Virus record (IMG/VR): IMGVR_UViG_2778261247_000012
Reading direction: 5' to 3' (one strand)
DNA: 17,270 nucleotides
Source: a virus
Taxonomy: Duplodnaviria; Heunggongvirae; Uroviricota; Caudoviricetes
In this document: piece after piece, positions 1,640-4,174 of the stretch
Numbering within the stretch: the first letter of the stretch is position 1
Layout of the letters: each line of letters begins with the position of its first letter
Notes under the pieces: generated by a model
What the model was told of the DNA's origin: nothing
The model's input: only the letters and a program-made list of their open reading frames with translations
Databases searched by the model: none
Program-made: the position numbers and the translations under genes

Positions 1640-1700
1640 TTTTTATTCATGATTGCGATGAAGGAAAATTTAATTTTCTCCATCGCGTTATATTTTTAAT
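1640..1700. terminator. Putative bidirectional terminator between convergent int and the TIR-STAND gene
   Basis: Imperfect hairpin GCGATGAAGGAAAATT / AATTTTCTCCATCGC (1655-1686) flanked by T-rich runs on both sides. Confidence 0.45.
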
Positions 1701-4174
1701 TAATTTTTAGCGGCATATTCTTTTATCCTTTTCAAAATTCTTTCTCTTGCTTCCTGAGGATATTTTTTAATATCATTGGATATTATCTGATTTGCACTAT
1801 CTGCATCACCCTTTAAAGCCATTAAATAAGCCAGATAGGTTGTAAGTGTTCGTTCAGACACAACTTTTCGCCTTTTCATTTTATCTAATGAGGATAAGGC
1901 TTCCTCTAGTGTCTGTATAGACTTGAATTTTAATCCAATATCACACTTTGCGAGTAATGGATAAGGACTTTCTGGATATATTGCTATACAGTCATTTATT
2001 ATGGTGATTGACTTCACTGCATCATTTTCAATTTTAGCTGAATACATTGCGTCAGCTATTTTTGCCATTTCATTTGATTGCTCTGAATCAATGCTGATTA
2101 AGGTGGTGATAATATCTTTTAACACGATATTATCTGACGCTACCCTATGCTGAGAATTTATGAGACAATTAAAATAGGCTTGACAGTGGAATTGATTGCT
2201 TCTATTTTCTTCATAGTTCTTTTTAGCATAACTTAACGCTTTATCATATTCTTCTAATTGTGTATAAACCTGAACCAATTCTCGTTTAGCTCGAGACTCA
2301 ACATATGGAGCATTGATTATACTTTCAAACTGAAAAAGTGCATCAGAAAGTCTTCCGCATTTTCTGTAATAGAAACCCAATAAAAATTTATGTTCATCAC
2401 CGGAAATTTTTTGAACTTCAGTTAAAAGCCTGGAATCGGATTTTTTTGCTAAAGCAAGACATAGATAGTATCTTATATCTTGTACAACACCATTATCCAT
2501 GTTCTTTTCTTTTTGTAAAATTGTGTCTGCTAATGATATTACTTTTTCTAATGAACCTTTTGTATTATATAAATCTTTCATACATCTTAAATAATGCGAA
2601 GGAATAAGGTGTTTAGGATCAATATACTCATCTGATTTGAGCATTTCTTTTATGGTAAAAATATATACAGATGAGTTTGCTTCTGTTAAATCTTCATTGT
2701 TTACTATATCTTTAACAACTAAATTAAGTTTTTTATTATGCTCATCATTAATCTTAAGTCTGTTTCTTTTTATATAATCTCTTACGATATCATTTAATCT
2801 GATCATTTCACCATCAGAACCCACTAATTCGCAAATGCTTTCTGCAATCAAAGCTTCAAGGACAGGTAGATATTTGTCCTTATCAACGATTGAAAAAATA
2901 AAGTCTAATGTTATTACCTCAAATTGAGCGAGGAGTCTTATAAAGTCTAAAACCGTTTCATTGTGGGCATACCTTTGTAGCTGTATTGATGCTTTATCAT
3001 TATTAAAATCTGACAGTATAGGAAGTTTATTCTCAAATGGTATTATGTTTTTATCCTTTATCAGTTCAATAGCAAACCTTACTTGTTCTGGCAAACCAGT
3101 AAGTAAGTCGCAGACGCTGCTAAAGTTGGATGGGTCTAGATCATCAATATTTTCAATTTCTAATAGTTGTGATAATAGACGCCTTCTTTCTTTTACATTA
3201 AGCTCGGGTAATTCAATGAAATAAAATCTGTCATCACGAGGCCTGTTAGCAAAGTTGACCCTGTATCTTGAGGCGATACATAATACAGGGAAATTGATGT
3301 CATTATACTCTTCAATTATCATTTTAAACCAGGGGGTTAATTCTCGCTTATAGTTTATTATACACCCATCATCTAGGAAAAATATTGTTTCTTTTGCTTT
3401 GTAAGCTTCATTTAATATGTTGGATATTATTTTTTGCTTTTCCTCAATTGTTTTTTCTGAAAGTGATAGAGCACTTTCTTTAAGATCGGTAATACCTAAA
3501 TCGTTAAGTTTTAGGATAAAATCCTCAATTGACTCATTTCTGTCTAAATATATAGCATAAGGTGTGATTTGATTTTTTTGAATGTTACATTTTATTAACG
3601 CTTTAGATAAGAATGACCTTCTTCCTACACCTATTAAACCAGATGCGAAGATAACAGTTGGTTTTTTTTTAGTGTAATCGTTAATTCTCTCTTCAAATTC
3701 TTCTAGCTTATCGTTTCTTCCTACAAATAATGAGCTTATTTTGGCAAGTTTGGGGTGTTTTTGCCAAGAAATTTTGTATAGATGGTTCTTAATTCTTGAG
3801 GCTGCAGTTCTTGCGCGTGTGATGGGTTGAAGATTATAGTCTTTTCTTAACCAATCAGGTATTCTTTGGTCTTCATGATTTATACTGTTGTCAATTATTA
3901 TGGGGAAAATTTTCAAAATTTTACCTTCATCGAGGAGTTTTTTTGACTCAGTTATTTCCTTTTTGACCCATTCGGACTCAAGTGCGCTGTTGGAAATAAA
4001 AAGAACAAATAACTCTGATTCTCCTAAACCCTCCATAATTTGGTCTAGTGTTTTTTCTCCTTCCTCAAAAGTAAATTCATCATATATTATGTTTTCCTTG
4101 CCAAGCCAATTAGCGACATTACGCACATAATGTTCCTTATCTTTACTTGAGTGCGATAAAAATGCCTTTATCAT
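1700..4174 (-). CDS. TIR-domain / STAND-like P-loop NTPase / TPR-repeat protein (824 aa); candidate anti-phage defence effector in the satellite cargo slot
   Basis: N-terminus MIKAFLSHSSKDKEHY...ELFVLFISNSALESEWVKKEI matches TIR hallmarks, including the conserved SxW..E glutamate. Residues about 145-270 read FVGRNDKLEEF...TVIFASGLIGVGRRSFLSKAL (Walker A-like) and ETIFFLDDG (Walker B). The C-terminal 350 aa are helical repeats of TPR type. Strong RBS AAGGAG 7 nt upstream of the ATG. The gene is markedly AT-rich relative to the flanking satellite genes. Confidence 0.8.
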   Translation of the reverse strand: MIKAFLSHSSKDKEHYVRNVANWLGKENIIYDEFTFEEGEKTLDQIMEGLGESELFVLFISNSALESEWVKKEITESKKLLDEGKILKIFPIIIDNSINHEDQRIPDWLRKDYNLQPITRARTAASRIKNHLYKISWQKHPKLAKISSLFVGRNDKLEEFEERINDYTKKKPTVIFASGLIGVGRRSFLSKALIKCNIQKNQITPYAIYLDRNESIEDFILKLNDLGITDLKESALSLSEKTIEEKQKIISNILNEAYKAKETIFFLDDGCIINYKRELTPWFKMIIEEYNDINFPVLCIASRYRVNFANRPRDDRFYFIELPELNVKERRRLLSQLLEIENIDDLDPSNFSSVCDLLTGLPEQVRFAIELIKDKNIIPFENKLPILSDFNNDKASIQLQRYAHNETVLDFIRLLAQFEVITLDFIFSIVDKDKYLPVLEALIAESICELVGSDGEMIRLNDIVRDYIKRNRLKINDEHNKKLNLVVKDIVNNEDLTEANSSVYIFTIKEMLKSDEYIDPKHLIPSHYLRCMKDLYNTKGSLEKVISLADTILQKEKNMDNGVVQDIRYYLCLALAKKSDSRLLTEVQKISGDEHKFLLGFYYRKCGRLSDALFQFESIINAPYVESRAKRELVQVYTQLEEYDKALSYAKKNYEENRSNQFHCQAYFNCLINSQHRVASDNIVLKDIITTLISIDSEQSNEMAKIADAMYSAKIENDAVKSITIINDCIAIYPESPYPLLAKCDIGLKFKSIQTLEEALSSLDKMKRRKVVSERTLTTYLAYLMALKGDADSANQIISNDIKKYPQEARERILKRIKEYAAKN

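What the first reader, a model, noticed from the sequence alone, without database searches (positions are those of the whole stretch)
1700..4174. Single-gene TIR-STAND-TPR protein in the P4 satellite cargo slot, a candidate uncharacterised anti-phage system
The slot between int and psu, next to cos, is the known hypervariable anti-phage cargo locus of P4-like satellites; in P4 itself it holds gop/beta/cII. Here it holds one 824-aa gene that is much more AT-rich than the backbone and has its own strong RBS and AT-rich promoter region. The protein combines a TIR domain with the catalytic-type glutamate context (SEWVKKEI), a STAND-like NTPase and a C-terminal TPR-like sensor region. That is the NLR-like layout of pattern-recognition immune proteins, with TIR as a likely NAD+-depleting effector. 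I cannot tell from sequence whether this particular family has been tested. Because the satellite depends on a P2-type helper, the sensor presumably tolerates the helper.
Basis: partly seen in the sequence, partly recalled or inferred. Interest (0 to 1): 0.85.

Follow-up and report, generated by a model that had tools for sequence, protein, structure and literature searches.

The report
Known TIR-NLR anti-phage gene in P4 satellite
The 824-residue gene in the cargo slot of this P4-like phage satellite is real and has the predicted TIR, NLR-type NTPase and TPR domains, but it is the "TIR-NLR" anti-phage system already shown to work in 2022, so it is not a new find.

Summary
An 824-aa ORF (1700..4174, minus strand) is the only gene in the int-psu cargo slot of an 11.65-kb P4-like satellite inserted in tRNA-Leu (leuX). 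It lies next to an exact cos site. Its GC is 0.32 against 0.56 for the backbone, and AAGGAG sits 7 nt before the ATG. TIR, NB-ARC-like NOD and TPR folds were all confirmed.

The "uncharacterised" reading fails. The protein matches the PADLOC "TIR-NLR" model end to end (1879 bits). It is 97.8% identical (18/824 differences) to the Klebsiella protein that Rousset et al. 2022 cloned from this hotspot and showed to protect E. coli against phages. That protein is also in the PDB (9M0N/9UMD). The exact E. coli protein, WP_021038236, is in their hotspot table.

TIR-NLR restricts P2 and four P2-like phages and lowers P4 transduction. Only phage 186 escaped.

The mechanism remains inferred: TPR sensing, NOD oligomerisation, then NAD+ cleavage by the TIR domain (Glu73).

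One detail may be undescribed. The P-loop reads GxxxxG-R-[KR]-[ST], with a near-invariant extra arginine, and the second Walker B acid is not conserved.

Verdict: already known, low interest.

The parts
122..206 (+). tRNA-Leu (CAA), leuX; its 3' end carries the satellite attL core
   Evidence: ARAGORN and Rfam tRNA. An 18-nt repeat at 183-200 recurs at 11835-11852. Comparison with an empty site gives a 24-bp overlap.
358..1624 (+). P4-type tyrosine integrase, split into two ORFs (358..825 and 677..1624) by an extra A at 802
   Evidence: Pfam Arm-DNA-bind_3, Phage_int_M and Phage_integrase. The indel is seen against PMV-1. The same allele is 100% identical in APEC IMT5155, DE17 and VTB96815v.
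1625..4327 (.). Cargo segment of the int-psu hotspot (GC 0.314), holding one gene
1700..4174 (-). TIR-NLR gene, 824 aa plus stop codon
   Evidence: PADLOC TIR-NLR matches 1-824/824 at 1878.7 bits. It is 97.8% identical to 9M0N.
3755..4174 (-). TIR domain (aa 1-140); the catalytic-position Glu73 codon is at 3956-3958
2747..3733 (-). NOD (aa 148-476), made of nucleotide-binding, helical and winged-helix domains. The P-loop is aa 179-187 (3614-3640), the Walker B D268 codon is at 3371-3373, the GxP motif is G360/P362, and the MHD-like motif is L460-N461-D462
1703..2746 (-). TPR/alpha-solenoid sensor region (aa 477-824)
4182..4187 (-). Shine-Dalgarno AAGGAG, 7 nt upstream of the ATG
4192..4221 (-). 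Candidate sigma-70 promoter (TTGTCT-18-AATAAT, 9/12); a weak consensus match only
   Evidence: The surrounding region is about 97% identical to the functional published insert.
4328..4346 (-). cos cohesive-end sequence shared by P2 and P4
   Evidence: Exact 19-nt match, 0 expected by chance. P4 and P2 homology meets here.
4511..6406 (-). psu (4511..5083), delta (5157..5657) and the sid-position gene (5654..6406)
   Evidence: Pfam Psu at 292 bits and Ogr_Delta. phrog_6165 for the third gene.
6558..6661 (.). ori1-type cluster of TGTTCACC iterons
   Evidence: 6 of the 13 window matches fall here; 0.47 matches are expected in the whole window.
7266..7506 (+). P4 immunity RNA region: the a1/b1 targets, isrK and C4 (CI) RNA
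   Evidence: Rfam RF03163, RF01394 and RF01695.
8957..11290 (+). alpha primase-helicase
   Evidence: Pfam Zn_Ribbon_Prim, Toprim_3, D5_N and Pox_D5.
11345..11645 (.). crr-like pair of 119-nt direct repeats carrying TGTTCACC iterons
11835..11858 (+). attR core; right end of the satellite
   Evidence: In the empty leuX site of strain 2009C-3133, window 1-206 and 11835-16188 are contiguous.

Best explanation
The gene is the E. coli allele of the published single-gene 'TIR-NLR' anti-phage system (Rst_TIR-NLR; PADLOC TIR-NLR). It is carried as the sole cargo of the cos-adjacent int-psu hotspot of a P4-like satellite integrated at leuX. Shown here or in the paper: the locus, the three-domain architecture, conservation of the catalytic-position glutamate, near-identity of both the coding and promoter regions to the tested construct, and anti-phage activity of that construct, including activity against P2-like helpers. 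Inferred: the protein rests as an autoinhibited NLR-like receptor. The C-terminal TPR solenoid binds a phage-derived trigger. The NB-ARC-like NOD then drives oligomerisation. Oligomerisation brings TIR domains together into an active NADase that uses Glu73. Loss of NAD+, possibly with cADPR-isomer by-products, stops the infected cell before phage progeny are released (abortive infection). The P-loop GxxxxG-R-[KR]-[ST] and the non-conserved second Walker B acid suggest that the NOD acts as a nucleotide-binding switch rather than an efficient hydrolase. That last point is my inference only.
For: Family identity: the PADLOC TIR-NLR model matches 1-824/824, E=0, 1878.7 bits. There are 18/824 differences from PDB 9M0N/9UMD; the first 399 aa shown for the pFR90 protein of Rousset 2022 match that chain exactly and differ from the window at 4 positions. 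WP_021038236 (PMV-1, whose gene is 100% identical in DNA) is listed in their Table S1A. The cos-to-ATG region is about 97% identical to their insert. [quoted passage not shown] Architecture. Catalytic glutamate. Single-gene autonomy: homologues in Shewanella, Pseudomonas and Acinetobacter have unrelated neighbours. Nearly all listed relatives of the NOD-TPR module are about 820 aa with a roughly 140-aa N-terminal domain. In the 113 full-length ones that domain aligns as a TIR domain with E73 kept.
Against: No biochemical data were found for this family. Rousset 2022 only proposes TPR sensing, NTP-dependent oligomerisation and NAD+ degradation. I found no paper for 9M0N/9UMD. The window allele itself has not been tested, and 13 of its 18 substitutions lie in the putative sensor. 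The non-canonical P-loop leaves NTP dependence open. The satellite's integrase is frameshifted. A sister genome, IMT5155, has the TIR-NLR gene annotated in two pieces, so decay in this lineage is possible.
Confidence: 0.8

Rival explanations
1. The TIR domain is mainly a signal generator, as ThsB is in Thoeris and as plant TNLs are. On this view it makes a cADPR-type nucleotide that acts on an unlinked host or satellite effector, rather than killing by bulk NAD+ depletion.
For: The TIR sequence is closest to AbTIR-type bacterial TIRs and Cat1, and AbTIR is known to make cADPR isomers (established knowledge). The top Foldseek match is the plant TNL RPP1.
Against: The Klebsiella gene alone protects when cloned into E. 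coli K-12 and E. coli C. No partner gene is conserved next to homologues in four taxa. No sensor of such a signal is known in K-12.
Confidence: 0.1
2. In this particular strain the gene is a silent or decaying passenger. It would be AT-rich foreign DNA that is poorly expressed, sitting in a satellite that can no longer excise, so it contributes little defence.
For: The integrase frameshift is shared by three avian E. coli genomes. The gene is split in IMT5155. GC is 0.32, which is typical of xenogeneically silenced DNA (established knowledge).
Against: The ORF is intact over 824 codons, with all family-invariant residues kept. The RBS and upstream region match the construct that was active from its native promoter.
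Confidence: 0.08
3. One reading: a previously uncharacterised TIR-STAND-TPR defence family.
For: Pfam and NCBIfam recognise only the TIR domain and weak TPR signals. RefSeq annotates it only as a 'TIR domain-containing protein'.
Against: A dedicated PADLOC model, the 2022 experimental validation and PDB entries all exist.
Confidence: 0.02

Closest known systems
TIR-NLR (Rst_TIR-NLR) of Klebsiella pneumoniae SB5442, plasmid pFR90, Rousset et al. 2022 (PMC9122126); PDB 9M0N/9UMD
   Same: Same length (824 aa) and 97.8% identity. Same int-psu/cos hotspot of a P4-like satellite. The upstream region is nearly identical. Same TIR-NOD-TPR layout, and it matches the same PADLOC model end to end.
   Different: There are 18 substitutions, 13 of them in the TPR region. 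The host is E. coli (avian and other lineages, 26 of 5426 complete genomes). The satellite here has a frameshifted integrase.
Avs / AVAST single-gene STAND defence proteins (Avs1-5)
   Same: Both are NLR-like: an N-terminal effector, a STAND NTPase and a C-terminal helical-repeat sensor, all in one gene. The likely logic is the same: sensing of a phage protein, then oligomerisation, then effector activation.
   Different: No PADLOC Avs model matched at E <= 0.01. EfAvs5 is only a weak Foldseek hit (rank 48). The effector is TIR rather than a nuclease or SIR2. The NOD carries NB-ARC-type GxP and MHD-like motifs and an R-inserted P-loop.
Plant TIR-NLRs (RPP1, ROQ1) and NB-ARC proteins (NRC2, Apaf-1)
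   Different: Identity is about 10-15%. The sensor is TPR rather than LRR/C-JID. The MHD histidine is Asn. The P-loop has an extra Arg. No downstream EDS1-type pathway is present.
MalT and PH0952 (STAND NTPases with TPR/SUPR sensors)
   Different: These are transcription or signalling regulators with no TIR effector, and they have canonical GKT P-loops (established knowledge).
Bacterial TIR NADase effectors (AbTIR, Thoeris ThsB, TIR-SAVED, Cat1, retron-TIR)
   Same: TIR fold with the conserved S-x-W-x-x-x-E glutamate.
   Different: Those are activated by cyclic nucleotides, by filament scaffolds or by partner proteins, not by an in-cis NOD-TPR module.

Membership tests
Rst_TIR-NLR / PADLOC TIR-NLR (PDLC03015) | Full-length match to the family model | tested here: met
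   Matches 1-824 of 824 model positions, E=0, 1878.7 bits.
Rst_TIR-NLR / PADLOC TIR-NLR (PDLC03015) | N-terminal TIR, central STAND/NB-ARC-like NOD and C-terminal TPR in one polypeptide | tested here: met
Rst_TIR-NLR / PADLOC TIR-NLR (PDLC03015) | Single-gene cargo of the P4 int-psu hotspot next to cos | tested here: met
   WP_021038236 is listed in Rousset Table S1A.
Rst_TIR-NLR / PADLOC TIR-NLR (PDLC03015) | Confers phage resistance when expressed from its native promoter | not testable with these tools
   Shown for the 97.8%-identical Klebsiella protein. This allele is untested.
TIR NADase | TIR (flavodoxin-like) fold | tested here: met
TIR NADase | Catalytic glutamate in the W-x-x-x-E position | tested here: met
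   E73 is invariant and aligns with the glutamate of AbTIR, PdTIR and Cat1.
TIR NADase | NAD+ cleavage activity | not testable with these tools
   Only proposed in Rousset 2022.
STAND NTPase, NB-ARC/AP-ATPase-like | Fold with a nucleotide-binding domain, a helical domain and a winged-helix domain | tested here: met
STAND NTPase, NB-ARC/AP-ATPase-like | Canonical Walker A GxxxxGK[ST] | tested here: not met
   The window has G179-LIGV-G184-R185-R186-S187. Across the family the motif is G-R-[R57/K46/S8]-[S/T], with R185 in 111/114.
STAND NTPase, NB-ARC/AP-ATPase-like | Walker B hhhhD[DE] | tested here: inconclusive
   D268 is kept in 113/114. Position 269 is D here but N44/D19/E12/K8/R5 across the family.
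STAND NTPase, NB-ARC/AP-ATPase-like | GxP (GLPL) and MHD motifs | tested here: inconclusive
   G360 is kept in 112/114 and P362 in 114/114. The MHD place reads L-N-D, with Asn instead of His.
STAND NTPase, NB-ARC/AP-ATPase-like | Match to the Pfam NB-ARC/NACHT HMM | tested here: not met
   hmmscan found no NTPase family at E <= 0.01. Only profile-profile HHpred in the paper reaches NB-ARC, at 99.5%.
Avs (AVAST) types 1-5 | Match to an Avs family model | tested here: not met
   The PADLOC scan returned TIR-NLR and TIR-only models but no Avs model at E <= 0.01.
P4-like satellite | int, psu, delta, sid-position gene, alpha, cos, C4/CI RNA, ori/crr iterons and att repeats at a tRNA | tested here: met
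   The int gene is frameshifted.

The most novel reading that the evidence does not exclude
The NOD of this family may not be a conventional NTP-hydrolysing STAND. Its P-loop carries a near-invariant extra arginine (GxxxxG-R-[KR]-[ST]). The Walker lysine position switches freely between Lys and Arg, and it is Arg in this protein. The second Walker B acid is usually Asn, and the MHD histidine is Asn. If no one has described this, including in the unpublished or unfound 9M0N/9UMD work, TIR-NLR would be a distinct NLR subclass. It would be activated by nucleotide binding or exchange without hydrolysis, or by a different anionic ligand. Separately, the 13 TPR substitutions in the E. coli allele could retune which phages, including its own helper, are sensed.
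Probability: 0.15. Interest if true: 0.45.

Novelty: already known. Interest (0 to 1): 0.12.

Why it matters
As a discovery it adds little. The system, its location and its anti-phage activity were published in 2022, it is in the standard defence-system databases, and a structure has been deposited. Three modest points remain. First, this is a clean natural example: an intact satellite backbone, exact cos and att sites, and an empty-site comparison. Second, TIR-NLR is the one P4 cargo known to hurt the P2 helper, so strains such as this one are the place to ask how a satellite lives with a defence gene that limits its own transfer. Here the integrase is already broken. Third, the unusual P-loop is worth checking against the deposited structure.

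Tried and rejected
1. Avs or bNACHT membership. No PADLOC Avs model and no Pfam NACHT or NB-ARC hit appeared at E <= 0.01, so I did not file it there.
2. Publication for 9M0N/9UMD or any mechanistic study of bacterial TIR-NLR. Six text searches and a seventh broader one found only surveys and plant papers. The Foldseek PDB copy (entries to 2026-04-08) did not return 9M0N either.
3. Promoter prediction. The consensus scan is not above chance, so I rely on identity to the functional construct instead.
4. 'Walker A lacks lysine entirely'. My first reading, from close homologues, was corrected by the wider family. There position 186 is Lys in 46 of 114 sequences, so R186 is the Lys-equivalent and R185 is an inserted, near-invariant Arg.
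5. Effector swapping on this NOD-TPR module. Nearly all listed relatives are about 820 aa with a roughly 140-aa N-terminal domain. In the 113 full-length ones it aligns as a TIR domain, so no swapped effectors appear at this depth.
6. Side lead, the 682-aa ORF outside the satellite. The AF2 model was poor (pLDDT 60.6) and Foldseek gave no significant match, so it is left as a note.

Full report
**1. What is there**

The window is E. coli chromosome around leuX. It is 99.97% identical to strain PMV-1 over all 17.27 kb. It is 100% identical to strain DE17 over the three segments I compared.

tRNA-Leu(CAA) lies at 122-206. An 18-nt copy of its 3' end recurs at 11835-11852. In strain 2009C-3133 the site is empty. 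There, window 1-206 and 11835-16188 are contiguous with a 24-bp overlap. So about 207-11858 is a clean 11.65-kb insertion.

Its content is that of a P4-like satellite:
- integrase, psu, delta, a sid-position gene, ash and the alpha primase-helicase
- the C4/CI immunity RNA with its targets
- TGTTCACC iteron clusters at the ori (6558-6661) and at a crr-like pair of 119-nt repeats (11345-11645)
- the exact P2/P4 cos sequence at 4328-4346

**2. The observation**

The ORF at 1700..4174 (minus strand) encodes 824 aa. It is the only plausible gene between the int stop (1624) and cos.

Homology to P4 itself ends exactly at cos on one side and inside int on the other. GC is 0.317 for the ORF against 0.560 for the backbone, and GC3 is 0.25 against 0.71 for alpha. 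AAGGAG sits 7 nt before the ATG.

A sigma-70-like site lies at 4221..4192, but it is a weak match and such sites are not enriched over shuffles.

**3. Domains**

*TIR.* Pfam finds TIR_2 at aa 5-99 (E 6e-13) and nothing else.

*Model.* An AlphaFold2 model built on 40 homologues is confident (pLDDT 86.6, pTM 0.85).

Foldseek's best hit is the plant TIR-NLR RPP1.

*Catalytic residue.* E73 is invariant in the close family and in 113 of 114 aligned sequences (113 distant representatives plus the window). It aligns with the W-x-x-x-E glutamate of AbTIR, PdTIR and Cat1.

*NB-ARC-type motifs.* Several are recognisable:
- Walker B D268
- S302-[KR]303
- G360-x-P362
- L460-N461-D462-xx-R465-D466 at the MHD place

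**4. It is already known**

The PADLOC library has a model named TIR-NLR, and this protein matches it over 1-824/824 at 1878.7 bits.

Rousset et al. 2022 (PMC9122126) surveyed exactly this int-psu hotspot. They cloned 18 cargo systems with native promoters. A single-gene TIR/STAND/TPR protein that they called TIR-NLR was among seven validated systems.

Their tested protein came from plasmid pFR90, Klebsiella pneumoniae SB5442. It differs from the window protein at 4 of the 399 residues shown in the supplement.

The full sequence is in the PDB as 9M0N/9UMD, labelled 'Tetratricopeptide repeat protein', with 10 chains in 2 entries. It differs from the window protein at 18 of 824 positions (97.8% identity), 13 of them in the TPR region.

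The exact E. coli protein, WP_021038236, and a sister allele, WP_059327187, appear in their Table S1A as hotspot cargo. The family ranks 28th in their summary table, with 54 occurrences.

The cos-to-ATG segment is about 97% identical between the window and their insert, while the psu side is far more diverged. So the cassette, promoter included, has moved between diverged satellites with a junction near cos.

**5. The helper**

The paper reports the opposite for this system. [quoted passage not shown] It reduced P420 (P4) titres to a similar extent. Phage 186cIts was unaffected, and the authors suggest that natural helpers may escape.

**6. Mechanism**

Shown: the defence phenotype of a 97.8% orthologue, the architecture, the conserved glutamate, and autonomy as a single gene.

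On autonomy, homologues in Shewanella, Pseudomonas (beside P2-like tail genes) and Acinetobacter (among housekeeping genes) share no neighbour.

Inferred, as also proposed but not tested by Rousset et al.: the TPR senses a phage component, the NOD oligomerises, the TIR domains assemble into an active NADase, and NAD+ loss aborts the infection. I put this at roughly 0.65-0.7 given how other TIR and NLR-like defence proteins work. Identity with TIR-NLR is essentially certain.

**7. A detail that may be worth a look**

In close homologues the P-loop reads SGxxG[VI]G-R-R-[TS], with no lysine. I searched 1.84 billion representative proteins with the NOD-TPR part. That gave 609 clusters at E <= 1e-3. 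Nearly all listed hits are about 820 aa, with the match starting near residue 140.

Aligning 113 full-length representatives with the window protein gave these counts out of 114:

| Position | Residues |
|---|---|
| G184 | 114/114 |
| R185 | 111/114 |
| 186 | R 57, K 46, S 8 |
| 187 | mostly S/T |
| D268 | 113/114 |
| 269 | N 44, D 19, E 12, K 8, R 5 |

So the family P-loop is GxxxxG-R-[KR]-[ST]. It has an extra, near-invariant Arg, a Lys/Arg-interchangeable phosphate-binding residue, and no conserved second Walker B acid.

By analogy with engineered K-to-R Walker A mutants (established knowledge), this suggests nucleotide binding without efficient hydrolysis. That is my inference. The deposited structures probably settle it, but I could not find their paper.

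**8. Distribution**

The gene is in 26 of 5426 complete E. coli genomes, always at >=99% identity and on the chromosome. The two I opened carry it in the same leuX satellite.

The wider family spans Enterobacterales, Vibrio, Shewanella, Pseudomonas, Acinetobacter, Aliarcobacter and others, and its length is strikingly constant.

**9. Verdict**

It is already known, and interest is low.

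Noticed in passing
window 12535-14583 (+): A 682-aa AT-rich ORF (GC 0.33) lies just outside the satellite. It has no Pfam, NCBIfam, PHROG or PDB-sequence match. The family is narrow: 90 hits, all Enterobacterales, and one is named NERD-domain by UniRef. The motif 'DCVILLDDCLIFTELKS', with invariant D481, D487, E494 and K496, and an alpha-beta-beta-beta pattern look like a PD-(D/E)xK nuclease core. 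The ORF is present in 360 of 5426 E. coli genomes, always annotated as hypothetical. It sits beside a phosphorothioate-DNA-binding HNH restriction endonuclease, so it is a possible uncharacterised defence gene. The AF2 model was poor (pLDDT 60.6). Foldseek gave nothing significant; the top weak hits were McrC and the Shedu nuclease.
   Followed up: partly
window 802 (int, 358-1624): An extra A relative to PMV-1 splits the satellite integrase into two ORFs. The same allele is 100% identical in three avian E. coli genomes (APEC IMT5155, DE17, VTB96815v). It is therefore a real lineage frameshift, and the satellite may be locked in place.
   Followed up: partly
NZ_CP005930.1 (APEC IMT5155), hit H11 to window 1700-4174: In this sister genome the TIR-NLR gene aligns over 2474 instead of 2475 nt and is annotated as two CDS (a TPR protein and a TIR protein). 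This suggests a 1-nt deletion that inactivates the defence gene in one member of the int-frameshift lineage.
   Followed up: no
window 11835-16188; locus L008: leuX carries an older integrase-less islet: the 678/682-aa hypothetical protein, a PT-DNA-binding restriction endonuclease (15206-16135, NF045808, 438 bits) and, in L008, an HNH endonuclease gene (a partial remnant in PMV-1). In strain 2009C-3133 it sits directly after the tRNA. The P4-like satellite inserted between the tRNA and this islet.
   Followed up: partly
window 12612, 1637/1638 and 11632/11633: There are three further single-base indels relative to PMV-1. The one at 12612 makes the hypothetical ORF 682 aa here, against 587 aa as annotated in PMV-1, so PMV-1 probably has the truncated or misassembled version.
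   Followed up: no
protein cluster P0001 (778 aa, 413 member sequences): The 90%-identity cluster that holds this protein is represented by a 778-aa form starting at Met47. That form would delete the invariant first strand of the TIR domain (FLSHSxxDK), so it is a mis-called start in many database entries.
   Followed up: no
PDB 9M0N / 9UMD: The sequence search finds these entries for the Klebsiella TIR-NLR. The Foldseek PDB library (entries released up to 2026-04-08) did not return them, and no paper in the library cites them. They are probably very recent or not yet released.
   Followed up: partly
window 5654-6406 (-): The gene in the sid position has no Pfam hit, but it matches phrog_6165, whose label is 'polarity suppression Psu-like'. 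That label looks misapplied, because the true psu is the neighbouring gene at 4511-5083.
   Followed up: no
loci L003/L004 (Pseudomonas viridiflava), 8001-10469: A 55%-identical TIR-NLR homologue sits at the edge of a P2-like tail and baseplate gene cluster. So the family also travels at the ends of P2-type prophages or tailocins outside the enterobacteria.
   Followed up: no
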